This document shows, piece after piece, positions 1 to 29,656 of a stretch of 29,656 nucleotides of DNA. Source of the DNA: a virus (lineage: Duplodnaviria; Heunggongvirae; Uroviricota; Caudoviricetes); the IMG/VR virus record IMGVR_UViG_2529293215_000019; one strand, written 5' to 3'. How positions within the stretch are numbered: position 1 is the first letter of the stretch; every line of letters begins with the position of its first letter. Made by a program: the position numbers and the translations under genes. Under the pieces are notes generated by a model that saw only the letters and a list, made by a program, of their open reading frames with translations, searched no databases and was not told where the DNA came from.

Positions 1-996
1 TTATGGACGCATTATGGACATTCCTGACACCGGGTTAAGAGTCACAGCATCTTGTAAGAAATCCGGTGCAAAGTGTGCGTAGGTCATAGTTTGCTGAATG
101 TTAGAATGACCCAGGATGCGCTGCAATGTGATTATGTTACCTCCATTCATTATAAAATGTGTGGCAAATGTATGCCTCAAAACATGCACTGCCTGTCCGT
201 CAGGTAAATCGGGTTTTACTTCCCTGAGAGCGTTGCGCACTTTGTAGTAACTGGCATTAAAAAGCCTGCCTGAATTTTTGGTCTTGATCCGTTTAATCAG
301 GTCCTGCGAAACGGGAATTGTCCTGCGCTTTCCGTTTTTAGTTTTCATAAACGTAACCATCTGGTTAATGATGTGTTCAGCTTTCAAATTAGACACTTCA
401 CTCCAGCGTCCACCAGTAGAAAGGCAGACCAGAGTTGCATTTAACTCATCACCATCAAGCATGGATAACAGCCGCGTAATCTCTTCACTGGACAAAAAAG
501 CCATTTCCGTAACAGCTTCACGTAACCGCTTAACCTCACGGAACGGGTTGTGAGAGTGGTATTCACCGGCGTCAATTAACTTGGTGAACATCCCGCTCAT
601 TATTGCCAGATGCCGATTTACGCTGGCTGGTTTTAGGCCATCGTTCATCATTACAACGCGATAATCAGTTATCGTTTTCTTTGTTAGCTGGTCCGCCCTG
701 GACACTCCCATCTCGGCAAATTTGGCGATTATTGTCGTCAAACGCCCTCGTTCAATATCTCCACGCTCATGTGATTTTCCGTGATATATCCACCATCTGC
801 CTAACAACTCTGTAAGAGTTCGGCGGTCGGCCGGCTTCTCCAACCACTCTTTGTTGTGGTAGTTAACCAGGACATGACGTTCGAATGCTTGAGCTTCACC
901 TTTAGTTTTAAATTTCCGCCTGATACGTTTTCCATCTGCACCCTGCGGTCTGACGTCCACTTCATAACGACCATCATCGAGCTTTTTAATAGACAT
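1..996 (-). CDS. int: tyrosine site-specific integrase (P2 Int-like)
   Basis: 331-aa ORF; ATG at 994-996 (minus) preceded by GGAGGG; C-terminal HVLRHTFATH and MTYAHF segments fit the tyrosine-recombinase catalytic region; first gene of a P2-order prophage arm. Stop codon is at window positions 1-3, so attL lies outside the window. Confidence 0.9.
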   Translation of the reverse strand: MSIKKLDDGRYEVDVRPQGADGKRIRRKFKTKGEAQAFERHVLVNYHNKEWLEKPADRRTLTELLGRWWIYHGKSHERGDIERGRLTTIIAKFAEMGVSRADQLTKKTITDYRVVMMNDGLKPASVNRHLAIMSGMFTKLIDAGEYHSHNPFREVKRLREAVTEMAFLSSEEITRLLSMLDGDELNATLVCLSTGGRWSEVSNLKAEHIINQMVTFMKTKNGKRRTIPVSQDLIKRIKTKNSGRLFNASYYKVRNALREVKPDLPDGQAVHVLRHTFATHFIMNGGNIITLQRILGHSNIQQTMTYAHFAPDFLQDAVTLNPVSGMSIMRP

Positions 997-1089
997 AAAG
1001 CCCTCCGATGACGCTGTTTACTTCTACTACTTGAAAATTAATGCAATTTTCTTTCGTACATTTACTGCACACATATGCTGAATAAATCG

Positions 1090-1401
1090 TCAGCCAGTCT
1101 TTTGGTCTGAGTGGTGCAAGGTTGTTGAGTCTTGCCCAATGTGCGCGAGCGCCGGGGCTATTTGTCCGCCAGCGGGATCAGTTTCATCAAACATGAACCA
1201 GTCACGGTACTTGCGAAATCTTTCTGGCTTGAAAAATTTCATACCTGCGTCAAAAGACATCTTTACTTTTCCCTGCTCATATCCAGCATAGGTGTTGTAG
1301 TTAATTCCAGTTAATTCAGCAACTTGCTTCCTTGTCATTCTTTCTGATTCCCGAATAAGTGCGAGTTTCTCTGCTTGAGATGTGATTTGTGTATTTGACA
1401 T
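1090..1401 (-). CDS. C: immunity repressor (P2 C-like, XRE-type helix-turn-helix)
   Basis: First ATG of the ORF is at 1401 (the track start at 1449 is TTG), giving 103 aa; HTH-like segment MTRKQVAELTGINYNTYAGYEQGK; located between int and a divergent cox-like gene as in P2. Length differs from the 99 aa I recall for P2 C. Confidence 0.7.
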   Translation of the reverse strand: MSNTQITSQAEKLALIRESERMTRKQVAELTGINYNTYAGYEQGKVKMSFDAGMKFFKPERFRKYRDWFMFDETDPAGGQIAPALAHIGQDSTTLHHSDQKTG

Positions 1402-1505
1402 GAATTGTCGTATCTCGTAATTTATGTTGTATGCGACACGCCAGAACAACGCAGAGCGGCTTCAAATAGCTCTGATTGAATGGCACCAAAGTTGAGGATA
1501 TCAAA
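1402..1505. promoter_or_regulatory. lysis-lysogeny switch region between divergent C and cox (expected Pc/Pe promoters and operators)
   Basis: 104-bp AT-rich spacer between divergently oriented repressor and cox-like genes; TTGACA at 1395-1400 (plus) overlaps the C start codon and could be the -35 of the early rightward promoter. Individual operators not resolved by eye. Confidence 0.45.
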
Positions 1506-1862
1506 ATGAGTATTGGATCAGAAATGAATAACGATGTTGGAGAAAAAGTATCTGATCTCACAAAAAGTAAAAAATGTGACATCAAACTTGCAGCCGCACC
1601 GTCGGATTTGCTCTCGAAAGAGGGTTTTGCTCTTTACATCGGTAAGACGCCTCGTGCTGTTGCTGAAATGGCGAAAGCAGGCAAGTTACCAGCCTTTTAT
1701 ATGACGGACCCATTAAAGCCGGGCGGTCATGCTGAGTTATGGATTAATCGTCGTGAGTGGGACAAGTACGCAGCCCAGCTAGTTGATGAAGCTCCGACAG
1801 AATGGCATGACTGGAAAAATCGCATTAGTTACAGCAAATCAAGACATGGCCGTGCGGCTTAA
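1506..1862 (+). CDS. cox: Cox-like excisionase / early transcriptional regulator
   Basis: First in-frame ATG at 1506 preceded by GAGGA; HTH-like FALYIGKTPRAVAEMAKAGKLP as in Cox/Apl proteins; first gene of the early rightward operon. 118 aa, longer than the 91 aa I recall for P2 Cox, so the start could be further downstream. Confidence 0.6.
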   Translation: MSIGSEMNNDVGEKVSDLTKSKKCDIKLAAAPSDLLSKEGFALYIGKTPRAVAEMAKAGKLPAFYMTDPLKPGGHAELWINRREWDKYAAQLVDEAPTEWHDWKNRISYSKSRHGRAA

Positions 1863-1872
1863 GGTGGAAAGG

Positions 1873-2043
1873 ATGAACGAGCCTCGTTGTATTGCTCAGT
1901 TATTGCGTAACGAAAGCCCCAGGGCGATTGACTTCACCATCACCCACGGGAAGGGGCGCAAGGGAATCATTATCCGTACCAAAAAACAGAGTCCGTTAAA
2001 AAAGGCTCTGACCTTTCTGAAAAGCCGGAGGGTCTGGAAATGA
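1873..2043 (+). CDS. hypothetical early protein (P2 orf78 position and size)
   Basis: 56-aa ORF with ATG at 1873 preceded by GGTGGAAAGG; stop overlaps the start of the next gene (ATGA). Confidence 0.5.
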   Translation: MNEPRCIAQLLRNESPRAIDFTITHGKGRKGIIIRTKKQSPLKKALTFLKSRRVWK

Positions 2044-2540
2044 CAGTGATGACGCTTAATCTCGTCGAAAAACAGCCAGCAGCTATGCGCCGGATAATTG
2101 GTAAGCATCTTGCCGTCCCTCGCTGGCAGGAGACATGCGATTATTATAATCAGATGATGGAACGCGAACGGCTAACGGTTTGCTTCCATGCGCAGTTAAA
2201 ACAGCGTCACGCAACGATGCGTTTTGAAGAAATGAATGATGTCGAACGTGAACGACTGGTATGTGCAATTGATGAATTGCGTGGGGCATTCTCAAAACGC
2301 CGTCAGGTTGGCGCAAGTGAGTATGCATATATTAGTTTTTTAACAGTCAGTCAGCGTCGTACTTTATTTATGCATGCCGGATTGACTGAAAAAGAATTCA
2401 ACCAGCCATACTGGCGAATTAATGAAGAATCATGTTACTGGCGTGATGCTTTATTCCGTGCATTACGTGAATTATTCAGCCTGTTTGAGTATGCACCGAC
2501 AATTCTGACGTCGGTAAAACCAGAGCAATATCTGCATTAA
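2040..2540 (+). CDS. B: replication protein B-like (helicase-loader function in P2)
   Basis: 166-aa ORF, same length and map position as P2 gene B; ATG at 2040 overlaps the upstream stop. Confidence 0.7.
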   Translation: MTVMTLNLVEKQPAAMRRIIGKHLAVPRWQETCDYYNQMMERERLTVCFHAQLKQRHATMRFEEMNDVERERLVCAIDELRGAFSKRRQVGASEYAYISFLTVSQRRTLFMHAGLTEKEFNQPYWRINEESCYWRDALFRALRELFSLFEYAPTILTSVKPEQYLH

Positions 2541-2603
2541 GTAATTAACCAGAGTTTTTAACGCACTTAATTGTGCGGGGCTTCTTTTTGCCTGGAGAAA
2601 GTC

Positions 2604-2828
2604 ATGCATACAGTTTCTGAAAATCAGTGCGGTAAATACGCATTACTGCTGCAACAGGCCAGAACCGAAGCACAGGCCGACGCAGCGACGCGCTTTTCTT
2701 CTCATCTTGACGCCATGATTCGCCACATCACAAAGGCGGAGTTATCCCGCGTGGAGATAGTCGAGCTGCTCAGTCAGGAGTCGGAAAAATTTCACAATAT
2801 CGGATTGTCTCGCGGGGAGGTGCTTTGA
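2604..2828 (+). CDS. hypothetical early protein (P2 orf80 position)
   Basis: 74-aa ORF; ATG at 2604 preceded by GGAGAAA; stop overlaps next start (TGATG). Confidence 0.5.
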
Positions 2829-3130
2829 TGTCCTGTTCTCGTTCAGTTGTATTACTGAATAACGCCTTAAAAATCGCCGTTATGAAAAATGGCGATTTAT
2901 CTCTTATTCAACTTGGTCTTGATAAAGAAAAACGCGAAATAACTGAGTCAGTTATCGCGATTTATCAGAACGAATTAAATCTCCTGTCTGATGTGGTCAA
3001 TTTACTTGTTAAACGCGCTGTATTTCACAAGCAAATCTCCTCCGTGGATGAACTGACGAAATTAACGACAGAACTCGCCAGCTATTGCGCTGATGAATTT
3101 AAGAAACTGAACGACAAAAGGAACTGGTAA
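2828..3130 (+). CDS. hypothetical early protein (P2 orf81 position)
   Basis: 100-aa ORF translationally coupled to neighbours (TGATG upstream, TAATG downstream). Confidence 0.5.
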   Translation: MSCSRSVVLLNNALKIAVMKNGDLSLIQLGLDKEKREITESVIAIYQNELNLLSDVVNLLVKRAVFHKQISSVDELTKLTTELASYCADEFKKLNDKRNW

Positions 3131-3354
3131 TGCAGGACAACGTAGATTTCATTCAGGAACAACAGGCTGAATTACTGGAGCGCCAGATTAACGCGGCAAG
3201 GGTAAAACATTGCGGTGCTTCTGCGCTGGTTTGCGAAGAGTGTGATGCGCCAATACCTGCTGCCCGTCGTGCGGCTTATCCGTCAGCCACGCGTTGTGTT
3301 TCCTGCCAGTCAGTCTTTGAAGCAAAAAACAAGCATTACCGGAGAATGGCATGA
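3130..3354 (+). CDS. TraR/DksA-family C4 zinc-finger protein (P2 orf82 position)
   Basis: 74 aa; CxxC...CxxC arrangement (CEECDAPIPAARRAAYPSATRCVSCQ) typical of phage TraR/DksA-like zinc fingers; ATG at 3130 overlaps upstream stop. Confidence 0.7.
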   Translation: MQDNVDFIQEQQAELLERQINAARVKHCGASALVCEECDAPIPAARRAAYPSATRCVSCQSVFEAKNKHYRRMA

Positions 3355-3626
3355 GTATTCGTATCGAAATTGGCGAACGTTATGTCGTTACCAGTGACAG
3401 CTTTCAGTTTATTCTCCACGAGAAAAAGAGAGCGGAAAGCGGTAAAAACGCCGGCCAGGAATGGCTGGCGGTGGTTGGTTATTACCCGAAATTAAGCCAG
3501 CTCGTTTCCGGCCTGATGCATCACGATATTCTTACCGGAAGCGCAAAGTCTTTTGCTGATTTAAACGCGCAGGTTGAGCAACTCAGCAAGCGTTGTTCAG
3601 AGGCTTTTGGCTCATATGGCCGTTAA
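3351..3626 (+). CDS. hypothetical early protein (P2 orf83 position)
   Basis: 91-aa ORF; ATG at 3351 overlaps upstream stop (ATGA); 3' end overlaps the first ATG of gene A by 11 nt. Confidence 0.5.
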   Translation: MSIRIEIGERYVVTSDSFQFILHEKKRAESGKNAGQEWLAVVGYYPKLSQLVSGLMHHDILTGSAKSFADLNAQVEQLSKRCSEAFGSYGR

Positions 3627-5898
3627 AGCCTCCGGGCGTTTTGTCCCTCCGTCAGCATTTGCCGCAGGCACCGGTAAGACGTTTACCGGTGCTTATGCAT
3701 GGAACGCGCCACGCGAGGCCGTCGGGCGCGAAAGACCCCTTACACGTGACGAGATGCGTCAGGTGCAAGGTGTTTTATCCACGATTAACCGCCTGCCTTA
3801 CTTTTTGCGCTCGCTGTTTACTTCACGCTATGAATACATCCGGCGCAATAAAAGCCCGGTGCACGGGTTTTATTTCCTCACATCCACTTTTCAGCGTCGT
3901 TTATGGCCGCGCATTGAGCGTGTGAATCAGCGCCATGAAATGAACACCGACGCGTCGTTGCTGTTTCTGGCAGAGCGTGACCACTATGCGCGCCTGCCGG
4001 GAATGAATGACAAGGAGCTGAAAAAGTTTGCCGCCCGTATCTCATCGCAGCTTTTCATGATGTATGAGGAACTCAGCGATGCCTGGGTGGATGCACATGG
4101 CGAAAAAGAATCGCTGTTTACGGATGAGGCGCAGGCTCACCTCTATGGTCATGTTGCTGGCGCTGCACGTGCTTTCAATATTTCCCCGCTTTACTGGAAA
4201 AAATACCGTAAAGGACAGATGACCACGAGGCAGGCATATTCTGCCATTGCCCGTCTGTTTAACGATGAGTGGTGGACTCATCAGCTCAAAGGCCAGCGTA
4301 TGCGCTGGCATGAGGCGTTACTGATTGCTGTCGGGGAGGTCAATAAAGACCGTTCTCCTTATGCCAGTAAACATGCCATTCGTGATGTGCGTGCACGCCG
4401 CCAGGCAAATCTGGAATTTCTTAAATCGTGTGACCTTGAAAACAGGGAAACCGGCGAGCGCATCGACCTTATCAGTAAGGTGATAGGCAGTATTTCTAAT
4501 CCTGAAATTCGCCGGATGGAGCTGATGAACACCATTGCCGGTATTGAGCGTTACGCCGCAGCAGAGGGTGATGTGGGGATGTTTATCACGCTGACCGCGC
4601 CGTCAAAGTATCACCCGACACGTCAGGTCGGAAAAGGCGAAAGTAAAACCGTCCAGCTAAATCACGGCTGGAACGATGAGGCATTTAATCCAAAGGATGC
4701 GCAGCGATATCTCTGCCATATCTGGAGCCTGATGCGCACGGCATTCAAGGATAATGATTTACAGGTCTACGGTTTGCGTGTCGTCGAGCCACACCACGAC
4801 GGAACGCCGCACTGGCATATGATGCTTTTTTGTAATCCACGCCAGCGTAACCAGATTATCGAAATCATGCGTCGCTATGCGCTCAAAGAGGATGGCGACG
4901 AAAGAGGAGCCGCGCGAAACCGTTTTCAGGCAAAACACCTTAACCGGGGCGGTGCTGCGGGATATATCGCGAAATACATTTCAAAAAATATCGACGGCTA
5001 TGCACTGGATGGTCAGCTCGATAACGATACCGGTAAGCCGCTTAAAGATACTGCCGCGGCTGTTACCGCATGGGCGTCAACGTGGCGCATCCCGCAATTT
5101 AAAACGGTTGGACTGCCGACAATGGGGGCTTACCGTGAACTACGCAAATTGCCTCGCGGCGTCAGCATTGCTGATGAGTTTGACGAGCGCGTCGAGGCTG
5201 CACGCGCCGCTGCAGACAGTGGTGATTTTGCGTTGTATATCAGCGCGCAGGGCGGGGCAAATGTCCCGCGCGATTGCCAGACTGTCAGGGTCGCCCGTAG
5301 CCCGTCGGATGACGTTAACGAGTACGAGGAAGAAGTCGAGAGAGTGGTCGGCATTTACGCGCCGCATCTCGGCGCGCGTCATATTCATATCACCAGAACG
5401 ACGGACTGGCGCATTGTGCCGAAAGTTCCGGTCGTTGAGCCTTTGACTTTAAAAAGCGGCATCGCCGCGCCTCGGAGTCCTGTCAATAACTGTGGAAAGC
5501 TCATCGGTGGTGATACTTCGTTACCGGCTCCCACGCCTTCTGAGCACGCCGCAGCAGTGCTTAATCTGGTTGATGACGGTGTTATCGAATGGAATGACCC
5601 GGAGGTCGTGAGGGCGCTCAGGGGCGCATTAAAACACGGCCTGAGAAGACCAAACCGTCAGCAAAGAAACGGAAGCCCGTTAAAACCGCATGAAATAGCG
5701 CCATCGGCCAGACTGACCCGGTCGGAAAGAATGCAAATTACCCGTATCCGCGTTGACCTTGCTCAGAACGGTATCAGGCCGCAGCGATGGGAGCTTGAGG
5801 CGCTGGCGCGTGGTGCGACCGTAGATTACAACGGGAAAAAATTTACGTATCCGGTCGCTGATGAGTGGAGTTGGTTTTATTGTTATTCAGAGCAATAA
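3616..5898 (+). CDS. A: rolling-circle replication initiation endonuclease (P2 gpA-like)
   Basis: ORF of about 760 aa from the first ATG (3616; the track start at 3574 is TTG); contains a paired-tyrosine segment AGYIAKYISKNIDGY typical of rolling-circle initiators; position and size match P2 gene A. Confidence 0.88.
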   Translation: MAVKASGRFVPPSAFAAGTGKTFTGAYAWNAPREAVGRERPLTRDEMRQVQGVLSTINRLPYFLRSLFTSRYEYIRRNKSPVHGFYFLTSTFQRRLWPRIERVNQRHEMNTDASLLFLAERDHYARLPGMNDKELKKFAARISSQLFMMYEELSDAWVDAHGEKESLFTDEAQAHLYGHVAGAARAFNISPLYWKKYRKGQMTTRQAYSAIARLFNDEWWTHQLKGQRMRWHEALLIAVGEVNKDRSPYASKHAIRDVRARRQANLEFLKSCDLENRETGERIDLISKVIGSISNPEIRRMELMNTIAGIERYAAAEGDVGMFITLTAPSKYHPTRQVGKGESKTVQLNHGWNDEAFNPKDAQRYLCHIWSLMRTAFKDNDLQVYGLRVVEPHHDGTPHWHMMLFCNPRQRNQIIEIMRRYALKEDGDERGAARNRFQAKHLNRGGAAGYIAKYISKNIDGYALDGQLDNDTGKPLKDTAAAVTAWASTWRIPQFKTVGLPTMGAYRELRKLPRGVSIADEFDERVEAARAAADSGDFALYISAQGGANVPRDCQTVRVARSPSDDVNEYEEEVERVVGIYAPHLGARHIHITRTTDWRIVPKVPVVEPLTLKSGIAAPRSPVNNCGKLIGGDTSLPAPTPSEHAAAVLNLVDDGVIEWNDPEVVRALRGALKHGLRRPNRQQRNGSPLKPHEIAPSARLTRSERMQITRIRVDLAQNGIRPQRWELEALARGATVDYNGKKFTYPVADEWSWFYCYSEQ

Positions 5899-5970
5899 AC
5901 ATCTGATTTAATTTGTTGCATAATAGTAAAATTGCTGTTTATCTGCATGTGGTAACTATTGATAATTATG

Positions 5971-5998
5971 TTGCTAATAATGTGTGCAAATTTATACT
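5971..5998 (+). promoter_or_regulatory. candidate sigma70 promoter for the cargo gene
   Basis: TTGCTA (5971-5976), 16-bp spacer, TATACT (5993-5998), in a very AT-rich 116-bp leader; followed by AAGGTGA SD and ATG at 6015. Confidence 0.5.
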
Positions 5999-6014
5999 GA
6001 AAAAGGTGAAAACG

Positions 6015-7847: not shown

Positions 7848-7874
7848 TAACGTATACGTTGAGGCATAAAACCT

Positions 7875-17421: not shown

Positions 17422-17433
17422 ATCCTTCCCGTT

Positions 17434-18413: not shown

Positions 18414-18417
18414 AACC

Positions 18418-21959: not shown

Positions 21960-22333
21960 TTACTCACCAACAGCCCACCAACTGTAATTCATCGATACTG
22001 TGGAGCTGGTTGATGCAGTTCTGTAAGCGGAATTAAAACCGGTTAGTGTTGGACCTTCTGCAGTCATCACGAATCCCCGTCCAGCGCCTAAAGGCGCACC
22101 ACCATCACCAGAATGGGTAAGCATGGCGCAGTCCACTTTTTTAGGAAAAGGGATGCTGAATGTAATTCTCATTGTTTGCGTCGATAATGTCGGCGTAATC
22201 GCACCACGACCATATTGCAGGATTTTCCCGTTGGGTAATTTCATCCATCCATCACCACTGGCAAAAGAGGTCATGTCCGGTATCTGATTTTCCCCCGTTC
22301 CTACATTCCGTTTTGCCGCTTCTCCCAAACCAA
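21960..22333 (-). other. alternative tail-fibre C-terminal coding segment (Hv'), without its own start; fused to H only after inversion
   Basis: Minus-strand reading frame through the right repeat encodes [24 protein letters not shown]..., paralleling the H segment [25 protein letters not shown]... after the left repeat; stop at 21960-21962. Confidence 0.65.
22300..22333. repeat. right 34-bp inverted repeat (invertase crossover site)
   Basis: Reverse complement of 22300-22333 is identical to 20753-20786. Confidence 0.8.
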
Positions 22334-22400
22334 CGTTTATGAAAATGCAGAGATAACGGGCAAGTGGCATCATCTCCGGTTTTTATTCAGGGGGATGCTC

Positions 22401-22994
22401 ATGCTTATTGGCTATGTACGCGTGTCGACAAATGACCAGAACACGGAATTGCAGCGTAACGCGCTGGAGTGCGCAGGATGCGAGCGGATTTTTGAGGATA
22501 AAATCAGCGGCACGAAGTCCGACCGACCGGGACTGAAAAAACTGCTCAGAACATTATCAGCAGGTGACACTCTGGTAGTCTGGAAGCTGGACAGGCTGGG
22601 GCGTAGTATGCGGCATCTGGTCATTCTGGTTGAGGAACTGCGCGAACGCGGCGTTAATTTTCGCAGCCTGACAGATGCTATTGATACCAGCACGCCGATG
22701 GGGCGTTTTTTCTTTCATGTGATGGGTGCCCTGGCTGAAATGGAACGAGAGCTCATTGTCGAGCGGACTCGGGCCGGGCTGGAAGCGGCCAGAGCCAAAG
22801 GTCGTATTGGTGGCAGACGTCCTAAACTCACCGCGAGTGAGTGGGAGCAGGCCGGGCGTTTGCTGGCTGCAGGGGAGTCACGTCAACGCGTGGCACTGAT
22901 TTTTGATATTGGTCTGTCCACGCTCTATAAAAAATTTCCCTCATCAGCGACAAAGAATAAATTGTGTCATCCCTTAGCCAACCGGGACAAATAG
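22401..22994 (+). CDS. serine recombinase DNA invertase (Gin/Cin/Pin/Hin family)
   Basis: N-terminus MLIGYVRVSTNDQNTELQRNAL with the catalytic-serine motif, and HTH-containing C-terminus LSTLYKK, closely resemble Mu Gin; AGGGGGA SD upstream of the ATG at 22401; adjacent to the invertible segment. Confidence 0.9.
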   Translation: MLIGYVRVSTNDQNTELQRNALECAGCERIFEDKISGTKSDRPGLKKLLRTLSAGDTLVVWKLDRLGRSMRHLVILVEELRERGVNFRSLTDAIDTSTPMGRFFFHVMGALAEMERELIVERTRAGLEAARAKGRIGGRRPKLTASEWEQAGRLLAAGESRQRVALIFDIGLSTLYKKFPSSATKNKLCHPLANRDK

Positions 22995-23053
22995 CCTGAC
23001 ATCTCCGGCACAACTGAAAATACCACTCACCCATTAACCACGGAGTTAAACGG

Positions 23054-24244
23054 ATGAGTGACTATCATCACGGCGTGCAGGTGCTGGAGATTAACGACGG
23101 CACCCGCGTCATTTCCACCGTATCCACTGCCATTGTCGGCATGGTCTGCACGGCCAGCGATGCGGATGCGGAAACCTTCCCCATCAATAAACCGGTGCTG
23201 ATTACCAATGTGCAGAGCGCAATTGCAAAGGCTGGTAAAAAAGGCACGCTGGCGGCATCGTTGCAGGCCATCGCCGACCAGTCAAAACCGATCACCGTTG
23301 TCGTGCGTGTGGAAGACGGCACCGGCGACGACGAGGAAACGAAACTCGCGCAGACCGTTTCCAATATCATCGGCACCACCGACGAAAACGGTCAGTACAC
23401 AGGACTGAAAGCCCTGCTGGCGGCGGAGTCGGTAACCGGTGTTAAACCGCGTATTCTCGGCGTGCCGGGACTGGACACCAAAGAGGTGGCTGTTGCACTG
23501 GCATCAGTCTGTCAGAAGCTGCGCGCTTTCGGGTATATCAGCGCATGGGGCTGTAAAACCATTTCCGAGGTGAAAGCCTACCGTCAGAATTTCAGCCAGC
23601 GTGAGCTGATGGTCATCTGGCCGGATTTCCTCGCATGGGATACGGTCACCAGTACCACCGCCACCGCGTATGCCACCGCCCGTGCGCTGGGTTTGCGTGC
23701 CAAAATCGACCAGGAGCAGGGCTGGCATAAAACGCTGTCCAACGTCGGGGTGAACGGTGTTACCGGCATCAGCGCATCTGTATTCTGGGATTTGCAGGAG
23801 TCCGGCACCGATGCTGACCTGCTTAACGAGTCAGGCGTCACAACGCTGATTCGCCGTGACGGTTTCCGCTTCTGGGGTAACCGTACCTGCTCTGATGACC
23901 CGCTGTTCCTCTTTGAAAACTACACCCGCACCGCGCAGGTGCTGGCCGACACGATGGCTGAGGCGCACATGTGGGCGGTGGACAAGCCCATCACCGCAAC
24001 GCTGATTCGCGACATCGTTGACGGCATTAATGCCAAATTCCGTGAGCTGAAAACAAACGGCTATATCGTGGATGCGACCTGCTGGTTCAGCGAAGAATCC
24101 AACGATGCGGAAACCCTCAAGGCCGGAAAACTGTATATCGACTACGACTATACCCCGGTGCCTCCTCTCGAAAACCTGACCCTGCGCCAGCGTATTACCG
24201 ATAAATACCTGGCAAATCTGGTCACCTCGGTTAACAGCAATTAA
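23054..24244 (+). CDS. FI: contractile tail sheath protein (P2 gpFI-like)
   Basis: 396 aa, the length of P2 gpFI; ACGGAG SD; followed by the tail tube gene. Confidence 0.9.
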   Translation: MSDYHHGVQVLEINDGTRVISTVSTAIVGMVCTASDADAETFPINKPVLITNVQSAIAKAGKKGTLAASLQAIADQSKPITVVVRVEDGTGDDEETKLAQTVSNIIGTTDENGQYTGLKALLAAESVTGVKPRILGVPGLDTKEVAVALASVCQKLRAFGYISAWGCKTISEVKAYRQNFSQRELMVIWPDFLAWDTVTSTTATAYATARALGLRAKIDQEQGWHKTLSNVGVNGVTGISASVFWDLQESGTDADLLNESGVTTLIRRDGFRFWGNRTCSDDPLFLFENYTRTAQVLADTMAEAHMWAVDKPITATLIRDIVDGINAKFRELKTNGYIVDATCWFSEESNDAETLKAGKLYIDYDYTPVPPLENLTLRQRITDKYLANLVTSVNSN

Positions 24245-24256
24245 GGAGCCTGACCG

Positions 24257-24775
24257 ATGGCAATGCCGCGTAAACTCAAGTTAATGAACGTCTTTCTGAA
24301 CGGCTACAGCTATCAGGGCGTTGCAAAGTCCGTCACGCTGCCAAAACTGACCCGTAAGCTCGAAAACTATCGCGGTGCGGGGATGAACGGCAGCGCACCG
24401 GTAGACCTCGGCCTTGATGATGATGCGCTGTCAATGGAGTGGTCGCTCGGGGGCTTCCCGGATTCGGTTATCTGGGAGCTTTACGCCGCAACCGGCGTGG
24501 ATGCCGTGCCGATTCGTTTTGCAGGCTCTTACCAGCGCGACGATACCGGCGAAACGGTGGCCGTCGAGGTGGTCATGCGTGGCCGTCAGAAAGAAATCGA
24601 CACCGGCGAGGGGAAACAGGGAGAAGACACCGAGTCGAAAATCTCCGTGGTATGCACCTATTTCCGGCTGACGATGGACGGTAAGGAGCTGGTCGAAATC
24701 GACACCATCAACATGATTGAGAAGGTGAACGGCGTCGACCGGCTGGAGCAACACCGCCGCAATATCGGCCTGTGA
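24257..24775 (+). CDS. FII: tail tube protein (P2 gpFII-like)
   Basis: 172 aa, the length of P2 gpFII; AAGGAG SD. Confidence 0.9.
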   Translation: MAMPRKLKLMNVFLNGYSYQGVAKSVTLPKLTRKLENYRGAGMNGSAPVDLGLDDDALSMEWSLGGFPDSVIWELYAATGVDAVPIRFAGSYQRDDTGETVAVEVVMRGRQKEIDTGEGKQGEDTESKISVVCTYFRLTMDGKELVEIDTINMIEKVNGVDRLEQHRRNIGL

Positions 24776-24782
24776 TTTTCAT

Positions 24783-24803
24783 CCGGTCAGCCAGGCTGAC
24801 CGG
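24783..24803 (+). terminator. candidate stem-loop / attenuator after the tail tube gene
   Basis: CCGGTCAG-CCAGG-CTGACCGG: perfect 8-bp stem with 5-nt loop, 8 nt after the FII stop; only a weak T-run follows. Confidence 0.35.
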
Positions 24804-24831
24804 TTAACCCTGATTAAGAAGTGAGAAAACC

Positions 24832-25107
24832 ATGAACAAAGAAAATGTGATTACCCTGGACAATCCGGTCAAACGTGGTGAGCAGGTTATCGAACAGGTC
24901 ACGCTGATGAAACCCAATGCCGGGACGCTGCGCGGTGTCAGTCTGGCAGCGGTCGCAAACTCCGAAGTCGATGCACTGATTAAGGTGTTGCCGCGCATGA
25001 CGGCACCGATGCTGACCGAGCAGGAAGTCGCCGCACTGGAACTGCCTGACCTTGTGGCGCTGGCCGGTAAGGTGGTCGGTTTTTTGTCGCCGAACTCGGT
25101 GCAGTGA
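24832..25107 (+). CDS. E: tail assembly chaperone (P2 gpE-like)
   Basis: 91 aa, the length of P2 gpE; upstream of the tape measure gene; ends just after the T6G slippery run. Confidence 0.8.
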   Translation: MNKENVITLDNPVKRGEQVIEQVTLMKPNAGTLRGVSLAAVANSEVDALIKVLPRMTAPMLTEQEVAALELPDLVALAGKVVGFLSPNSVQ

Positions 25108-25259
25108 CGTTTCCGAAAAATCTCTCGGTCGATGACCTGATGGCGGATGTGGCAGTGATATTTCACTGGCCGCCATCAGAACTGTATCCCATGAGCCTGA
25201 CCGAACTCATCACATGGCGCGAAAAGGCGCTCCGGCGAAGCGGAAACACGAATGAGTAA
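24832..25259 (+). CDS. tail assembly chaperone frameshift product (gpE+E'), via programmed -1 frameshift near 25083
   Basis: The -1 frame after TTTTTTG (25080-25086) stays open for 57 codons (VAELGAVTFPKNLSVDDLMADVAVIFHWPPSELYPMSLTELITWREKALRRSGNTNE) and stops at 25257-25259, just inside the start of T; matches the known P2 E/E' arrangement. Confidence 0.6.
25080..25086 (+). promoter_or_regulatory. slippery sequence T6G for the E/E' programmed -1 translational frameshift
   Basis: TTTTTTG heptamer 7 codons before the E stop; the -1 frame is open downstream. Confidence 0.6.
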
Positions 25260-27699
25260 CAATGTAAAATTACAGGTATTGCTCAGGGCTGTTGACCAGG
25301 CATCCCGCCCGTTTAAATCCATCCGTACAGCGAGCAAGTCGCTGTCGGGGGATATCCGGGACACACAAAAATCACTGCGCGAGCTGAACGGTCAGGCATC
25401 CCGTATTGAGGGATTTCGCAAGACCAGTGCACAGCTCGCCGTGACTGGTCAGGAACTGAAAAAAGCCAGACAGGAAGCCGCAGCTCTGGCTGTCCAGTTT
25501 AAAAATACTGAACGACCGACAAATGCACAGGCAAAGGCAATGGAAGCCGCGCGTAAAAATGCGTCTGAGTTACAGGCGAAATATAACAGCCTGAGATTGT
25601 CGGTACAGCGCCAGCGTCAGGAATTGAGTCAGGCGGGTATTAATACCCGTAATCTGGCGCATGATGAACGAGGGCTGAAAAACCGTATCAGTGAAACCAC
25701 CGCCCAGCTTAACCGTCAGCGTGACGCGCTGGCGCGTGTCAGTGCACAACAGGCAAAACTTAACGCAGTCAAACAGCGTTATCAGGCAGGAAAGGAACTG
25801 GCCGGAAATATGGCCTCAGTAGGCGCTGCCGGTGTGGGGATTGCGGCGGCGGGAACGATGGCCGGAGTTAAGTTGCTGATGCCCGGTTATGAGTTTGCGC
25901 AGAAAAACTCAGAATTGCAGGCCGTGCTCGGAGTGGCAAAAGACTCCGCCGAAATGACCGCACTACGCAAACAGGCGCGCCAGCTCGGCGACAATACCGC
26001 CGCCTCGGCGGATGATGCGGCCGGTGCACAGATAATCATCGCGAAAGCGGGTGGGGATGTTGATGCCATTCAGGCGGCAACGCCGGTCACGCTGAATATG
26101 GCGCTGGCGAACCGCCGCACGATGGAAGAAAACGCCGCCCTGCTGATGGGGATGAAATCCGCCTTTCAGCTTTCAAACGATAAGGTCGCTCATATCGGGG
26201 ATGTTCTCTCCATGACGATGAACAAAACCGCCGCCGATTTTGACGGCATGAGCGATGCGCTGACCTATGCCGCACCTGTGGCAAAAAATGCCGGTGTCAG
26301 CATTGAAGAAACCGCCGCAATGGTCGGGGCGCTGCATGATGCAAAAATCACAGGCTCAATGGCGGGGACGGGAAGCCGTGCCGTGTTAAGCCGCCTGCAG
26401 GCACCGACGGGAAAAGCGTGGGATGCACTGAAAGAGCTTGGTGTGAAAACCTCAGACAGCAAGGGAAACACCCGACCAGTATTTACCATTCTGAAAGAAA
26501 TGCAGGCCAGTTTTGAGAAAAACCGGCTCGGTACTGCCCAGCAGGCCGAATACATGAAAACCATTTTCGGGGAGGAGGCCAGCTCAGCCGCCGCTGTGCT
26601 GATGACTGCCGCGTCAACCGGAAAGCTGGACAAACTGACCGCTGCGTTTAAAGCCTCAGACGGAAAGACCGCAGAACTGGTAAATATCATGCAGGACAAC
26701 CTCGGCGGTGACTTTAAGGAGTTTCAGTCCGCTTATGAGGCGGTGGGGACTGACCTGTTTGACCAGCAGGAAGGCGCACTGCGTAAGCTCACTCAGACGG
26801 CCACAAAGTATGTGTTAAAACTCGACGGCTGGATCCAGAAAAACAAATCACTGGCGTCAACCATCGGCCTCATTGTCGGTGGCGCGCTGGCGCTTATTGG
26901 CATCATCGGTGCCATTGGTCTTGTAGCCTGGCCGGTTATCACCGGCATCAATGCCATTATCGCGGCAGCAGGCGCAATGGGGGCAATCTTCACGACGGTT
27001 AGCAGTGCTGTTATGACGGCCATCGGGGCGATTAGCTGGCCGGTTGTGGCCGTGGTGGCCGCCATTGTCGCCGGGGCGTTGCTTATCCGTAAATACTGGG
27101 AGCCTGTCAGCGCATTCTTTGGCGGTGTGGTTGAAGGGCTGAAAGCGGCATTTGCGCCGGTGGGGGAACTGTTCACGCCACTGAAGCCGGTGTTTGACTG
27201 GCTGGGTGAAAAGTTACAGGCCGCGTGGCAGTGGTTTAAAAACCTGATTGCCCCGGTCAAAGCCACCCAGGACACCCTGAACCGTTGCCGTGACACGGGC
27301 GTCATGTTCGGGCAGGCACTGGCTGACGCGCTGATGCTGCCGCTTAATGCGTTCAACAAACTGCGCAGTGGTATTGACTGGGTACTGGAAAAACTCGGTG
27401 TTATCAACAAAGAGTCAGACACACTTGACCAGACCGCCGCCAGAACTCAAGCCGCCACGTATGGCAGCGGTGGTTATATTCCGGCGACCAGCTCTTATGC
27501 AGGCTATCAGGCTTATCAGCCGGTCACGGCACCGGCTGGCCGCTCTTATGTAGACCAGAGTAAAAACGAATATCACATCAGCCTGACGGGTGGTACTGCG
27601 CCGGGGACACAGCTTGACCGCCAGTTACAGGATGCGCTCGAAAAATACGAGCGGGATAAACGTGCGCGCGCCCGTGCCAGCATGATGCATGACGGTTAA
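25252..27699 (+). CDS. T: tail tape measure protein (P2 gpT-like)
   Basis: 815 aa, the length of P2 gpT; Ala/Gln-rich coiled-coil N-terminal half and hydrophobic Gly/Ala-rich segments. Confidence 0.9.
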   Translation: MSNNVKLQVLLRAVDQASRPFKSIRTASKSLSGDIRDTQKSLRELNGQASRIEGFRKTSAQLAVTGQELKKARQEAAALAVQFKNTERPTNAQAKAMEAARKNASELQAKYNSLRLSVQRQRQELSQAGINTRNLAHDERGLKNRISETTAQLNRQRDALARVSAQQAKLNAVKQRYQAGKELAGNMASVGAAGVGIAAAGTMAGVKLLMPGYEFAQKNSELQAVLGVAKDSAEMTALRKQARQLGDNTAASADDAAGAQIIIAKAGGDVDAIQAATPVTLNMALANRRTMEENAALLMGMKSAFQLSNDKVAHIGDVLSMTMNKTAADFDGMSDALTYAAPVAKNAGVSIEETAAMVGALHDAKITGSMAGTGSRAVLSRLQAPTGKAWDALKELGVKTSDSKGNTRPVFTILKEMQASFEKNRLGTAQQAEYMKTIFGEEASSAAAVLMTAASTGKLDKLTAAFKASDGKTAELVNIMQDNLGGDFKEFQSAYEAVGTDLFDQQEGALRKLTQTATKYVLKLDGWIQKNKSLASTIGLIVGGALALIGIIGAIGLVAWPVITGINAIIAAAGAMGAIFTTVSSAVMTAIGAISWPVVAVVAAIVAGALLIRKYWEPVSAFFGGVVEGLKAAFAPVGELFTPLKPVFDWLGEKLQAAWQWFKNLIAPVKATQDTLNRCRDTGVMFGQALADALMLPLNAFNKLRSGIDWVLEKLGVINKESDTLDQTAARTQAATYGSGGYIPATSSYAGYQAYQPVTAPAGRSYVDQSKNEYHISLTGGTAPGTQLDRQLQDALEKYERDKRARARASMMHDG

Positions 27700-27713
27700 G
27701 GAGGTGACGAAAA

Positions 27714-28193
27714 ATGATGCTCGCGTTAGGTATGTTTGTTTTTATGCGCCAGACGCTGCCACACCAGACCATGCAGCGTGAATCAGATTATCGCTGGCCG
27801 TCAAATTCCCGTATAGGTAAACGGGATGCCTACCAGTTTCTCGGTGTGGGTGAGGAAAACATCACGCTTGCCGGTGTGCTTTATCCCGAACTGACCGGCG
27901 GCAAGCTGACGATGACCACGCTCAGGCTGATGGCCGAGGAAGGCCGGGCGTGGCCGTTGCTGGATGGCACCGGCATGATTTACGGCATGTATGTCATCAG
28001 CAGGGTGAGTGAAACAGGGAGTATTTTCTTTGCAGACGGCACACCCCGGAAAATTGATTTTACGCTGTCGCTCACCCGCGTTGATGAATCACTGGCCGCG
28101 CTTTATGGCGATATCGGTAAACAGGCGGAATCGCTCATCGGTAAGGCTGGCAGTATGGCGACTAAATTCACGGGTATGACGGGGGCGGGATAA
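27714..28193 (+). CDS. U: tail protein (P2 gpU-like)
   Basis: 159 aa, the length of P2 gpU; GGAGGTGA SD. Confidence 0.85.
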   Translation: MMLALGMFVFMRQTLPHQTMQRESDYRWPSNSRIGKRDAYQFLGVGEENITLAGVLYPELTGGKLTMTTLRLMAEEGRAWPLLDGTGMIYGMYVISRVSETGSIFFADGTPRKIDFTLSLTRVDESLAALYGDIGKQAESLIGKAGSMATKFTGMTGAG

Positions 28194-29356
28194 TGCTGGA
28201 TGCACTGACATTTGATGCAGGCAGTACGCTGACGCCGGATTACATGCTGATGCTCGACAGCAGGGATATTACCGGCAATATCAGCGACCGTCTGATGAGC
28301 ATGACCCTGACGGATAACCGGGGCTTTGAGGCTGACCAGCTTGATATTGAACTGGACGATGCCGACGGGCAGGTCGGGCTGCCGGTTCGTGGCGCTGTCC
28401 TGACGGTGTATATCGGCTGGAAAGGTTTTGCCCTGGTATGCAAAGGGAAATTTACCGTTGATGAGGTTGAACACCGGGGCGCACCGGATGTGGTCACCAT
28501 CCGCGCCCGGAGTGCAGATTTTCGCGGGACGCTCAATTCCCGCCGGGAAGGCTCATGGCATGACACCACGCTCGGTGCGATTGTTGAGGCGATAGCCTCC
28601 CGTAACAGGCTGGAAGCCAGTGTCGCTCCGTCACTGGCCAGAATTAAAATTCCGCACATCGACCAGTCGCAGGAGTCTGATGCAAAATTCCTGACCCGCC
28701 TTGCAGAACGCAACGGCGGTGAGGTGTCGGTAAAAATGGGAAAACTGTTGTTTCTCAAAGCGGGGCAGGGGGTGACGGCCAGCGGTAAAAAAATCCCGCA
28801 GATTACCATCACCCGCAGTGACGGCGACCGCCATCATTTTGCGATTGCTGACCGTGGAGCCTATACCGGCGTAACGGCAAAGTGGCTTCACACCAAAGAC
28901 CCGAAGCCGCAAAAGCAGAAGGTAAAACTGAAACGCAAAAAGAAAGAGAAACACCTGCGCGCACTGGAGCACCCGAAAGCGAAACCGGTCACGCAGAAGA
29001 AAGCGCCAAAAGTACCGGAAGCGCGCGAAGGTGAATACATGGCCGGTGAGGCTGACAACGTTTTTGCCCTGACCACGGTATATGCCACGAAAGCGCAGGC
29101 CATGCGCGCCGCTCAGGCGAAGTGGGATAAGCTGCAACGGGGCGTGGCGGAGTTCTCCATCAGCCTGGCTACCGGTCGGGCAGATATTTACACGGAAACG
29201 CCAGCCAGAGTGTCTGGCTTTAAGCGCGTCATAGACGAGCAGGACTGGACAATCACTAAGGTGACACATTTTCTGAATAATAGCGGCTTCACGACGTCCT
29301 TGGAGCTTGAGGTCAGGCTTTCTGATGTGGAGTATGAAACAGAATATGATGAGTGA
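28193..29356 (+). CDS. D: tail protein / late control protein D (P2 gpD-like)
   Basis: 387 aa, the length of P2 gpD; ATG overlaps the U stop (TAATG). Confidence 0.85.
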   Translation: MLDALTFDAGSTLTPDYMLMLDSRDITGNISDRLMSMTLTDNRGFEADQLDIELDDADGQVGLPVRGAVLTVYIGWKGFALVCKGKFTVDEVEHRGAPDVVTIRARSADFRGTLNSRREGSWHDTTLGAIVEAIASRNRLEASVAPSLARIKIPHIDQSQESDAKFLTRLAERNGGEVSVKMGKLLFLKAGQGVTASGKKIPQITITRSDGDRHHFAIADRGAYTGVTAKWLHTKDPKPQKQKVKLKRKKKEKHLRALEHPKAKPVTQKKAPKVPEAREGEYMAGEADNVFALTTVYATKAQAMRAAQAKWDKLQRGVAEFSISLATGRADIYTETPARVSGFKRVIDEQDWTITKVTHFLNNSGFTTSLELEVRLSDVEYETEYDE

Positions 29357-29360
29357 TGTT

Positions 29361-29383
29361 TTTGTTTTATCTGTTTGTTTTAT
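29361..29383 (+). repeat. tandem direct repeat TTTGTTTTAT x2 in the ogr upstream region (candidate promoter or operator element)
   Basis: TTTGTTTTAT at 29361-29370 and 29374-29383, separated by CTG; TATAAG (29381-29386) could be a -10 element. Confidence 0.4.
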
Positions 29384-29437
29384 AAGGATAAATTAACTAA
29401 AATGGCACCATCAACAAAACCGGAAGAGGTGCTCGCG

Positions 29438-29656
29438 ATGTTTCATTGTCCTTTATGCCAGCATGCCGCACATGCGCGTACAAGCCGCTATATCACTGAC
29501 ACGACAAAAGAGCGTTATCACCAGTGTCAGAACGTGAATTGCAGCGCCACGTTCATCACTTATGAGTCGGTACAGCGATACATCGTGAAGCCGGGAGAAG
29601 TCCACGCCGTAAGACCGCACCCGTTGCCGTCAGGGCAGCAAATTATGTGGATGTAA
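29438..29656 (+). CDS. ogr: late gene transcriptional activator, zinc-finger protein (P2 Ogr-like)
   Basis: 72 aa from the first ATG (29438; GGAAGAGGTG SD); Cys4 zinc finger CPLCQ...CQNVNC; to my recollection essentially identical to P2 Ogr; last gene before the expected attR. Confidence 0.85.
   Translation: MFHCPLCQHAAHARTSRYITDTTKERYHQCQNVNCSATFITYESVQRYIVKPGEVHAVRPHPLPSGQQIMWM

What the first reader, a model, noticed from the sequence alone, without database searches (positions are those of the whole stretch)
1..29656. Window is a near-complete P2-like prophage whose two accessory loci both differ from P2
Every structural and replication gene matches P2 in order and, mostly, exact length, so the backbone is highly conserved. 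Differences cluster at the A-cos locus (cargo gene), the tail-fibre/Z-fun locus (invertible cassette plus invertase) and probably the immunity region. This mosaic pattern is what would be expected if this prophage is a vehicle for exchangeable host-benefit genes. attL (left of position 1) and attR (right of ogr) are not in the window.
Basis: partly seen in the sequence, partly recalled or inferred. Interest (0 to 1): 0.4.

Follow-up and report, generated by a model that had tools for sequence, protein, structure and literature searches.

The report
Mosaic P2-like prophage of E. coli O157:H7
The window is an apparently intact P2-family prophage from E. coli O157:H7 that differs from phage P2 at well-known swap points: it has another integration and immunity module, an untested candidate anti-phage RNase in place of old/tin, and a flip-flop tail-fibre switch in place of Z/fun; it is a correct but ordinary finding.

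Summary
The window differs by one base from a prophage of E. coli O157:H7 F8092B and runs exactly from the int stop to the ogr stop.

Thirty-two of the 42 P2 proteins are conserved at 93-100% identity with the same length. The differences from P2 are:
1. int/C/cox are replaced (53/48/35% identity).
2. Between A and cos, orf91/tin/old are replaced by one low-GC gene (6015-7847, 610 aa).
4. The end of I, plus H, G and Z/fun, are replaced by a Mu-G-like invertible cassette and a Gin-like invertase.

All four kinds of difference occur in other sequenced P2-like phages. Both hotspots are described in the literature.

The cargo is listed as "system 13, DUF4209" among the gpA-gpQ hotspot systems of Rousset 2022. 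It also matches PADLOC candidate PDC-S39. I found no report of a functional test. It has a DUF7380 N-terminus, a TPR-like middle and a C-terminal HEPN fold with an invariant R-x4-H motif. A phage-triggered RNase is therefore the likeliest function, but this is inferred.

The tail-fibre switch works in nature: a sister strain carries the exact flip at the 26-bp gix-like sites.

The prophage sits at the pflA start codon and gives PflA a new N-terminus.

Novelty: already known. Interest is low.

The parts
1..996 (-). Tyrosine integrase (331 aa), a different type from P2 Int
   Evidence: Pfam Int_N and Phage_integrase. 53% identical to P2 Int. 99.7% DNA identity to phage S164.
1090..1401 (-). C-type immunity repressor (103 aa), heteroimmune to P2
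   Evidence: Weak HTH matches in Pfam. 48% identical to P2 C. RefSeq CDS in F8092B.
1506..1862 (+). Cox (118 aa), the excision and switch protein
   Evidence: Pfam Phage_Cox, E 1.9e-29. 35% identical to P2 Cox.
1873..5898 (+). Early/replication operon: orf78, B, orf80-83 and A. All are P2-type.
   Evidence: 96-100% aa identity to P2 with equal lengths. DNA block w1859-5868 is 97.3% identical to P2.
5869..7954 (.). Replaced segment at the gpA-gpQ (A-cos) hotspot, 32-39% GC. It stands in place of P2 orf91/tin/old.
   Evidence: No P2 homology. GC profile. 99.4% identical to phage vB_EcoM-569R9. Present in 55 of 5426 E. coli genomes.
6015..7847 (+). Cargo gene (610 aa): DUF7380 N-terminal domain, TPR-like helical middle and C-terminal HEPN (DUF4209) domain with R564-x4-H569. 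It is PADLOC candidate PDC-S39 and system 13 of Rousset 2022.
7999..8017 (+). cos cohesive-end sequence GGCGAGGCGGGGAAAGCAC
   Evidence: Read directly. It aligns with both P2 cosL and cosR.
8187..17367 (.). Head, packaging, lysis and tail-completion genes: Q and P on the minus strand; O, N, M, L, X, Y, K, lysA, lysB, lysC, R and S on the plus strand.
   Evidence: 93.6-100% aa identity with equal lengths. 97.5% DNA identity.
17370..17433 (.). S-V junction of 64 bp. P2 orf30 and its flanks (938 bp) are absent.
   Evidence: Gap between the blastn blocks. orf30 has no hit. Sequence read.
17434..19930 (+). Baseplate genes V, W, J and I. P2 homology ends inside I at 19755.
   Evidence: V, W and J are 97-99% identical. 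I is 82% identical with a longer C-terminus.
19927..21120 (+). Tail fibre H in the window's orientation (397 aa). The constant part runs to 20753; variable tip Hv is 20754-21120.
   Evidence: Pfam Phage_tail_fib N-terminal domain and Gp53-like_C. Only 42% identical to the N-terminal part of P2 H.
20741..20766 (+). Left 26-bp gix-like crossover site TTCTCGCATACC-TT-GGTTTGGGAGAA, inside an 89-nt inverted repeat (20741-20829)
   Evidence: Inverted repeat. Aligns in register with Mu gixL and gixR. An in-silico flip at the core dinucleotide reproduces a sister strain.
21129..21524 (+). Tail-fibre assembly chaperone G, cognate to tip Hv (131 aa)
   Evidence: Pfam Caudo_TAP, E 2e-24. RefSeq CDS.
21496..21939 (-). 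Alternative chaperone G' (147 aa), cognate to tip H'v
   Evidence: Pfam Caudo_TAP, E 2e-31. 24% identical to G.
21960..22331 (-). Alternative fibre tip H'v, which has no start of its own. After inversion it is fused in frame to the constant part of H, giving a 399-aa fibre.
   Evidence: Pfam Gp53-like_C. In-frame fusion shown in silico. It shares only about the first 25 aa with Hv.
22320..22345 (-). Right 26-bp gix-like site TTTTCATAAACG-TT-GGTTTGGGAGAA, inside the right inverted-repeat arm (22257-22345)
22401..22994 (+). Gin/Cin/Pin-family serine DNA invertase (197 aa). It occupies the position of P2 Z/fun.
   Evidence: Pfam Resolvase and HTH_7. Matches Mu Gin structure 3uj3 at E 1e-94 over residues 1-182, with Ser9 present.
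22974..29656 (+). Late pF promoter region, tail genes FI, FII, E/E', T, U and D, and the late activator ogr (29438-29656)
   Evidence: 95-100% aa identity with equal lengths. 96.2% DNA identity. pF region aligned.

Best explanation
The window is the int-to-ogr span of an apparently intact 29.9-kb P2-family (Peduovirus) prophage of E. coli O157:H7. It is integrated at the start codon of pflA. It is a mosaic: a P2-type replication, head, lysis and tail backbone carrying four module differences from P2.

1. **Integration/immunity module.** A different int-C-cox module sets a different attachment site and immunity.
2. **gpA-gpQ hotspot.** One foreign low-GC gene replaces orf91/tin/old. Its product has an N-terminal DUF7380 domain, a TPR-like helical middle and a C-terminal HEPN domain with an invariant R-x4-H motif. 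I infer that it is a lysogenic-conversion defence protein. The N-terminal and TPR-like part would sense an infecting phage and release the HEPN RNase, stopping the infected cell.
3. **orf30.** The accessory gene orf30 is absent.
4. **Tail-fibre module.** The P2 fibre module and Z/fun are replaced by a Mu-G-type switch. A Gin-like serine invertase recombines two 26-bp sites in inverted orientation. One lies inside H and the other upstream of a promoterless alternative tip. Each flip gives the constant fibre shaft one of two tips, each with its own chaperone, and so alternates host range.

**Shown here:** backbone identity, segment boundaries, domain content, the sites, the in-frame fusion, natural occurrence of both orientations, and the integration site.

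**Inferred:** the defence function and RNase activity of the cargo, its expression in lysogens, and the receptor specificities of the two tips.
For: **Backbone and boundaries.**. cos is read. The window differs by one base from F8092B.

**Modules recur in other phages and genomes.**
- The int/C/cox module is found in 20 phage records.
- The cargo is 99.4% identical in vB_EcoM-569R9 and present in 55 of 5426 E. coli genomes.
- The invertase-FI junction is present in 545 of 5426 genomes.

**Cargo.**
- PADLOC PDC-S39 at E 2.8e-84.
- Pfam DUF7380 at E 3.8e-39 and a weak DUF4209 match.
- Of 70 diverse relatives, 48 hit DUF4209 and 69 hit DUF7380.
- R564 and H569 are invariant across relatives of 21-64% identity.
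- DUF4209 is classed as HEPN in PMC3710099.
- The protein is listed as system 13 (193 occurrences) of the gpA-gpQ hotspot in PMC9122126.
- Homologues of 64% and 54% identity sit in the same slot in Klebsiella and Kosakonia prophages.

**Tail-fibre switch.**
- Inverted repeat of 89 nt.
- The sites align in register with Mu gix.
- The invertase matches Mu Gin at E 1e-94.
- An in-silico flip matches strain SS TX 754-1 with one mismatch over about 4.9 kb.
- Opposite orientations occur in further closely related strain pairs.
- The two tips and the two chaperones have diverged.

**Literature on both hotspots and on invertases at Z/fun.**
Against: - I found no experimental test of the cargo family. 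The literature searches returned nothing for DUF7380 or WP_000997853. It is not among the systems validated in PMC9122126.
- In this protein the DUF4209 match is below Pfam's cut-off (19.4 bits against 22.3).
- Searches with the whole-protein model gave only non-significant TPR-like hits.
- Promoter-like sites upstream of the cargo are no more frequent than in shuffled sequence. Expression in lysogens is therefore unproven.
- The gene is co-oriented with the early operon, unlike old and tin in P2.
- Prophage viability is inferred only from intact genes.
Confidence: 0.85

Rival explanations
1. The cargo is not an anti-phage defence gene. It could be a selfish addiction or toxin module, or an RNase serving the phage itself, for example by shutting off the host or excluding P4-type satellites during lytic growth. 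It would then be read through from the early operon.
For: - The gene is on the same strand as A and directly downstream of it.
- No significant own promoter signal was found.
- The gpA-gpQ hotspot also holds non-defence cargo such as partition systems and the cytolethal distending toxin.
- I found no functional test of the family.
Against: - It matches a PADLOC defence-candidate model.
- HEPN RNases are recurrent defence effectors (PMC3710099).
- The slot holds old and tin in P2, and it holds validated defence systems in relatives.
- A 116-bp AT-rich spacer separates it from A, leaving room for a promoter.
Confidence: 0.25
2. The element is a defective or domesticated prophage. The invertible cassette would then be a relic that no longer affects any virion.
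For: - P2-like prophages are not SOS-inducible and many are cryptic. This rests on general knowledge, not a test here.
- PGAP annotates the flipped H in strain SS TX 754-1 as a pseudogene.
Against: - All 32 backbone proteins keep full P2 length at 93-100% identity, and cos is intact.
- The flipped H is an intact in-frame 399-aa ORF, so the pseudogene call is an annotation artefact.
- Both orientations occur among near-identical strains, so the invertase and its sites are active.
- Near-identical modules occur in isolated, plaque-forming phages such as S164, pro483 and vB_EcoM-569R9.
Confidence: 0.1
3. The C-terminal domain of the cargo is a catalytically inert HEPN-like helical bundle, or a membrane anchor, and the protein acts by binding rather than by cleaving RNA.
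For: - Rousset's table flags one predicted transmembrane helix.
- The last helix (residues 580-604) is hydrophobic.
Against: - R564 and H569 are invariant, and E500, R504, G560 and G570 are invariant too, over 70 sequences down to 21% identity. That pattern is expected for an active site.
- The hydrophobic helix carries nearly invariant Y584, C586 and W587, which fits a buried core helix better than a membrane helix.
Confidence: 0.15

Closest known systems
Bacteriophage P2 (NC_001895) and sequenced P2-like coliphages S164, pro483, pro147 and vB_EcoM-569R9
   Same: Gene order, cos, the replication, head, lysis and tail genes, and ogr are 93-100% identical in protein to P2. S164 shares the int-to-A block (98.3%), the Q-to-H constant part (97.4%) and the invertase-to-ogr block (94.8%). 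vB_EcoM-569R9 shares the cargo segment at 99.4%.
   Different: Compared with P2, it has another int/C/cox module, lacks orf30, orf91, tin, old and Z/fun, and has another fibre module. No single phage record carries this exact combination: the best hit covers 85% of the first 25 kb.
Mu G segment with Gin (also P1 C segment with Cin and e14 P segment with Pin); invertase-bearing Z/fun loci of P2-like prophages (bioRxiv 10.1101/2024.10.15.618418; PMC4272514)
   Same: A constant fibre part is fused to one of two tips. Two chaperones face each other inside the segment. The 26-bp sites align with gix. The invertase gene lies just outside the right-hand site. The invertase matches Gin closely over 182 aa (E 1e-94).
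   Different: The segment is 1.6 kb against 3 kb in Mu. The tips are short gp53-like C-terminal domains of about 120 aa. The switch sits in a P2 backbone at the Z/fun position. The Fis enhancer was not examined.
P2 old/tin and other gpA-gpQ hotspot systems (Rousset et al. 2022), including 'system 13, DUF4209'; PADLOC PDC-S39
   Same: Same slot between A and cos/Q. The protein is the same as system 13 apart from one residue seen in the part of the sequence the table shows. It is a single-gene system.
   Different: Unlike old and tin, it is co-oriented with A, and no phenotype has been reported for it.
HEPN-superfamily RNases used in defence (Csm6/Csx1, RnlA/LsoA, the HEPN domain of AbiA, HEPN-MNT toxins); eukaryotic C6orf70/ERMARD (DUF4209)
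   Same: R-x4-H motif, a helical-bundle fold match, and association with mobile elements and defence contexts.
   Different: The architecture (DUF7380 plus a TPR-like part plus HEPN in a single protein of about 610 aa) has no solved or characterised member. No partner antitoxin or CARF-type sensor is present.
Prophage ECA29 of Pectobacterium atrosepticum, integrated in pflA (cited in review PMC13492144)
   Same: A prophage uses pflA as its integration target.
   Different: ECA29 is reported to disrupt pflA. Here the phage end supplies a new start codon and 19 codons in frame, so a 265-aa PflA remains encoded. That ECA29 belongs to the P2 family is my recollection and was not checked here.

Membership tests
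P2-like phage (Peduovirus) | Collinear P2 gene order, with P2-type Q, P, O, N, M, L capsid genes, tail genes, the A initiator and ogr | tested here: met
   32 of 42 P2 proteins are 93-100% identical over equal length and in the same order.
P2-like phage (Peduovirus) | P2-type 19-nt cos site between the A-side hotspot and Q | tested here: met
   GGCGAGGCGGGGAAAGCAC at 7999-8017.
P2-like phage (Peduovirus) | Produces infectious particles (a functional phage) | not testable with these tools
   Only intact reading frames could be shown.
Gin/Cin/Pin/Hin (Din) invertible-segment switch | Small serine recombinase with an N-terminal catalytic Ser and a C-terminal HTH | tested here: met
   Pfam Resolvase and HTH_7. 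Matches Gin at E 1e-94. Ser9 aligns with the mutated position (Ala) of Gin structure 3uj3.
Gin/Cin/Pin/Hin (Din) invertible-segment switch | Two 26-bp sites (two 12-bp half-sites around a 2-bp core) in inverted orientation with identical cores | tested here: met
   Sites at 20741-20766 and 22320-22345, both with core TT. They align in register with Mu gixL and gixR.
Gin/Cin/Pin/Hin (Din) invertible-segment switch | Inversion really occurs and keeps the fibre gene in frame | tested here: met
   An in-silico flip equals strain SS TX 754-1, with one mismatch over about 4.9 kb, and gives a 399-aa H. Opposite orientations occur in other sister genomes.
Gin/Cin/Pin/Hin (Din) invertible-segment switch | Fis-bound recombinational enhancer in the 5' part of the invertase gene | not tested
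   The 5' coding region aligns well with gin (82% mean column identity), but Fis sites were not mapped.
HEPN superfamily RNase | Conserved R-x4-6-H motif | tested here: met
   R564-HKLA-H569 is invariant in 20 close relatives and 70 diverse relatives.
HEPN superfamily RNase | HEPN helical-bundle fold | tested here: inconclusive
HEPN superfamily RNase | RNA cleavage activity | not testable with these tools
   Needs biochemistry.
PADLOC candidate system PDC-S39 / Rousset 2022 gpA-gpQ system 13 (DUF4209) | Match to the family model or sequence, and location in the hotspot | tested here: met
   PDLC05011 at E 2.8e-84 over residues 74-632 of the 644-aa ORF. The sequence listed in Table S5B matches, with one residue difference in the part shown.
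Anti-phage defence system (functional sense) | Protects cells against phage infection | not testable with these tools
   I found no published test.

The most novel reading that the evidence does not exclude
The DUF7380 / TPR-like / HEPN protein is a stand-alone sensor-effector anti-phage RNase. It would be the first characterised member of a large family (about 2,700 cluster representatives) that has so far only been catalogued, as PDC-S39 and as P2 hotspot system 13.

Separately, lysogeny by this integrase type re-wires pflA. It gives PflA a phage-encoded N-terminus and puts transcription under phage control in about 7% of complete E. coli genomes.
Probability: 0.45. Interest if true: 0.4.

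Novelty: already known. Interest (0 to 1): 0.17.

Why it matters
As a genome-scan finding it mainly confirms textbook P2 biology: a stable backbone whose accessory content changes at a few fixed points.

Its practical value is as a well-delimited example. It pins the exact boundaries of each swapped module. It documents a natural flip of the tail-fibre switch between sister O157:H7 strains. It also points to one cheap experiment that has not been reported: cloning the 610-aa HEPN-type gene and challenging it with phages.

The pflA junction is a tidy case of a prophage rebuilding the 5' end of the gene it integrates into.

Tried and rejected
- **Profile search of the cargo family against PDB sequences.** Only chance coiled-coil hits, so there is no solved relative.
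- **Rfam and tRNA scans of the window.** Nothing found.
- **Promoter and terminator scan around the cargo.** Promoter-like sites are no more frequent than in shuffles, so there is no claim about a promoter.
- **Operator repeats between C and cox.** Nothing convincing; not pursued.
- **Literature searches.** Nothing on DUF7380 or WP_000997853. Nothing relevant on pflA together with P2-like phages. A broader search yielded only the ECA29/pflA precedent.
- **Fossil-cassette idea.** I considered that the invertible cassette was a fossil and rejected it because of the exact flip in a sister strain.
- **Pseudogene in SS TX 754-1.** I considered that the flipped H there was truly a pseudogene and rejected it. 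The sequence equals the in-silico flip and reads through for 399 aa.

Full report
**Origin and extent of the window**

A megablast of the first 25 kb against phage records returns only P2-family phages. The best hits are Escherichia phages S164 and pro483, at 97-98% identity over 84-85% of the query.

Against complete E. coli genomes, the A-cos region is 100% identical in four cattle- or human-derived strains: three named O157:H7 (F8092B, SS TX 754-1, TB21-1) and HB6. The whole window differs from F8092B (NZ_CP038355.1, 3621057-3650712, minus strand) by a single base. It runs exactly from the stop codon of int to the stop codon of ogr.

**Checking the observation against P2**

blastn against P2 NC_001895 gives four collinear blocks:
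- w1859-5868 = P2 26277-30286 (97.3%)
- w7999-17369 = P2 1-9369 (97.5%)
- w17434-19755 = P2 10308-12629 (95.0%)
- w22974-29656 = P2 17572-24254 (96.2%)

The cohesive-end sequence GGCGAGGCGGGGAAAGCAC lies at 7999-8017.

tblastn of all 42 annotated P2 proteins shows:
- 32 are conserved at 93.6-100% identity over their full, equal length. These are Q, P, O, N, M, L, X, Y, K, lysA, lysB, lysC, R, S, V, W, J, FI, FII, E, T, U, D, ogr, orf78, B, orf80-83 and A.
- I is 82% identical and longer (203 vs 176 aa).
- H matches only in its N-terminal part, at 42% (397 vs 669 aa).
- Int, C and Cox are 53%, 48% and 35% identical.
- orf30, G, fun(Z), orf91, tin and old have no counterpart.

Three corrections apply:
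- The immunity/integration module is definitely a different type.
- P2 orf30 is missing.
- The cargo ORF most likely starts at ATG 6015 (610 aa). RefSeq, the published table and the homologues all start there.

**The int-C-cox module and the integration site**

Window 1-1858 is 99.7% identical to phage S164. It is present in 20 phage records, so it is a known alternative module.

In F8092B the prophage lies between pflB and pflA. A 13-nt direct repeat, GTCAGTTATTGGT, flanks it with a core-to-core distance of 29,871 bp. This confirms that both att sites lie just outside the window.

The core overlaps the native pflA start codon.
- At the ogr end, the native ribosome-binding site and ATG are left driving an 8-codon ORF.
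- At the int end, the phage supplies a new ATG and 19 codons in frame. PflA is therefore encoded as 265 aa, with its first residue replaced and the rest intact.

The int-pflA junction occurs in 405 of 5426 complete E. coli genomes. A review cites a prophage (ECA29) integrated in pflA of Pectobacterium (PMC13492144).

That pflA is then transcribed from the phage C-int transcript is my inference. It rests on the known P2 Pc-C-int operon.

**The A-cos locus**

Window 5869-7954 has no P2 homology and drops to 32-39% GC, against about 55% for the backbone. It holds one gene, 6015-7847.

*Family matches*
- It matches Pfam DUF7380 (E 3.8e-39).
- It matches DUF4209 weakly, below the cut-off (19.4 vs 22.3 bits).
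- It matches the PADLOC candidate PDC-S39 at E 2.8e-84.

*Prior listing.* The same protein is listed in Table S5B of Rousset et al. 2022 as system 13, "DUF4209", with 193 occurrences in the gpA-gpQ hotspot of E. coli P2-like phages. One residue differs in the part of the sequence the table shows (PMC9122126). It is not among the systems that paper reports as validated.

*Occurrence*
- The segment is 99.4% identical in phage vB_EcoM-569R9.
- It is present in 55 of 5426 genomes.
- Homologues of 64% and 54% identity occupy the same slot in a Klebsiella P2-like prophage and a Kosakonia 186-like prophage.
- An exhaustive HMMER search finds 2,735 cluster representatives at E up to 0.001. Most of those listed are full-length proteins of about 600-640 aa.

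*Conservation.* In an alignment of 70 diverse members (21-64% identity), the invariant residues are D397, E500, R504, G560, R564, H569 and G570. R564 and H569 form an R-x4-H motif. Of these 70 members, 48 match DUF4209 and 69 match DUF7380. Anantharaman et al. 2013 classed DUF4209 as a predicted catalytically active HEPN domain (PMC3710099).

*Structure prediction*
- The full-length model (pLDDT 76, pTM 0.47) is almost all helical. It gives only TPR-like matches that are not significant.
- There is no relative among solved structures by sequence.

*Conclusion on the cargo.* My best reading is a single-protein sensor-effector, in which a DUF7380/TPR-like part controls a HEPN RNase. The domain content is shown. 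The RNase activity, the trigger and the defence phenotype are inferred.

Points against this reading:
- I found no functional test.
- The gene is co-oriented with A.
- There is no significant promoter signal.

**The tail-fibre locus**

P2 homology stops inside gene I at 19755 and resumes at 22974, just before the pF promoter. In between lie the following:
- the end of I
- an H of 397 aa, with a tail-collar N-terminal domain and a gp53-like C-terminal tip
- chaperone G (+)
- a second chaperone G' (-)
- a promoterless second tip H'v (-)
- a 197-aa serine recombinase (+)

An 89-nt inverted repeat (20741-20829 / 22257-22345, 81% complementary) contains two 26-bp sites:
- TTCTCGCATACC-TT-GGTTTGGGAGAA at 20741-20766
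- TTTTCATAAACG-TT-GGTTTGGGAGAA at 22345-22320

They align in register with Mu gixL and gixR. The recombinase matches Mu Gin at E 1e-94 over 182 residues and has the catalytic Ser9.

Inverting the window in silico between the two core dinucleotides keeps H in frame, giving 399 aa with the other tip. It also reproduces the sequence of sister strain SS TX 754-1 with one mismatch over about 4.9 kb.

Other closely related genome pairs (AC-3/AC-5 and OY754416/OY754389) also carry the segment on opposite strands. Their flanking sequence was not compared. The SS TX 754-1 flip shows that the switch is active in nature.

The two tips share only about their first 25 residues, and the chaperones are 24% identical. 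This is as expected for two receptor specificities.

The arrangement is the Mu G / P1 C / e14 P design placed in a P2 backbone, and it is common:
- The invertase-FI junction is present in 545 of 5426 genomes.
- A preprint notes that a DNA invertase is often encoded at the Z/fun hotspot, with inversion of adjacent genes (10.1101/2024.10.15.618418).
- Phase variation in P2-like prophages of EPEC has been measured (PMC4272514).

The Fis enhancer was not examined.

**Interpretation**

The Z/fun position carries a phage host-range device here, not a host-benefit gene.

Both hotspots, their variability across more than a thousand P2-like phages, and the defence role of the gpA-gpQ locus are established. 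Every module seen here recurs in other records. The particular combination is found in a few O157:H7 genomes.

**Verdict**

The finding is already known in kind and of low interest.

The one open item is the untested DUF7380-HEPN protein. The pflA 5'-end replacement is a minor curiosity.

Noticed in passing
Outside the window: L003 6933-6945 and 36804-36816 (host flanks of F8092B). In window terms, 91-103 nt left of position 1 and 113-125 nt right of 29656.: The prophage is integrated at the start codon of pflA. The phage end supplies a new ATG plus 19 codons in frame, so PflA is 265 instead of 246 aa. The native RBS and ATG remain at the other end in front of an 8-codon ORF. The int-pflA junction is present in 405 of 5426 complete E. 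coli genomes.
   Followed up: partly
window 17370-17433: P2 orf30 and its flanks (938 bp between S and V) are absent. Only 64 bp with a GC-rich hairpin separate S from V. I did not find a TGT-N12-ACA activator site like that of the P2 pV promoter in these 64 bp.
   Followed up: partly
L004 3131-4330 (strain SS TX 754-1): In the strain with the flipped segment, RefSeq annotates H as a truncated pseudogene plus a separate gp53-like ORF. The sequence nevertheless reads through as an intact 399-aa fibre. This is an annotation artefact of invertible segments.
   Followed up: yes
window 22957-22994: The last codons of the invertase ORF run into the conserved pF late-promoter region. P2 homology resumes 20 nt before the invertase stop, and the TTGTG...TTAGCCAACC part of the P2 activator-binding region is retained.
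   Followed up: partly
L006-L008 6001-7842; L009 6001-7821: Homologues of the cargo, 64% and 54% identical, sit between A and the portal gene in a Klebsiella variicola P2-like prophage and a Kosakonia cowanii 186-like (CI-type) prophage. In the Kosakonia prophage they are accompanied by further small unannotated genes.
   Followed up: partly
window 5869-5898: The recombination boundary of the cargo segment lies inside the last 10 codons of gene A. The A protein therefore has a different C-terminal end from P2 A, and P2 orf91, which overlaps that end in P2, is lost.
   Followed up: no
window 19756-19930: The left boundary of the replaced tail-fibre module lies inside gene I, so the C-terminal third of I travels with the H N-terminus. 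This suggests that these two parts must match each other.
   Followed up: no
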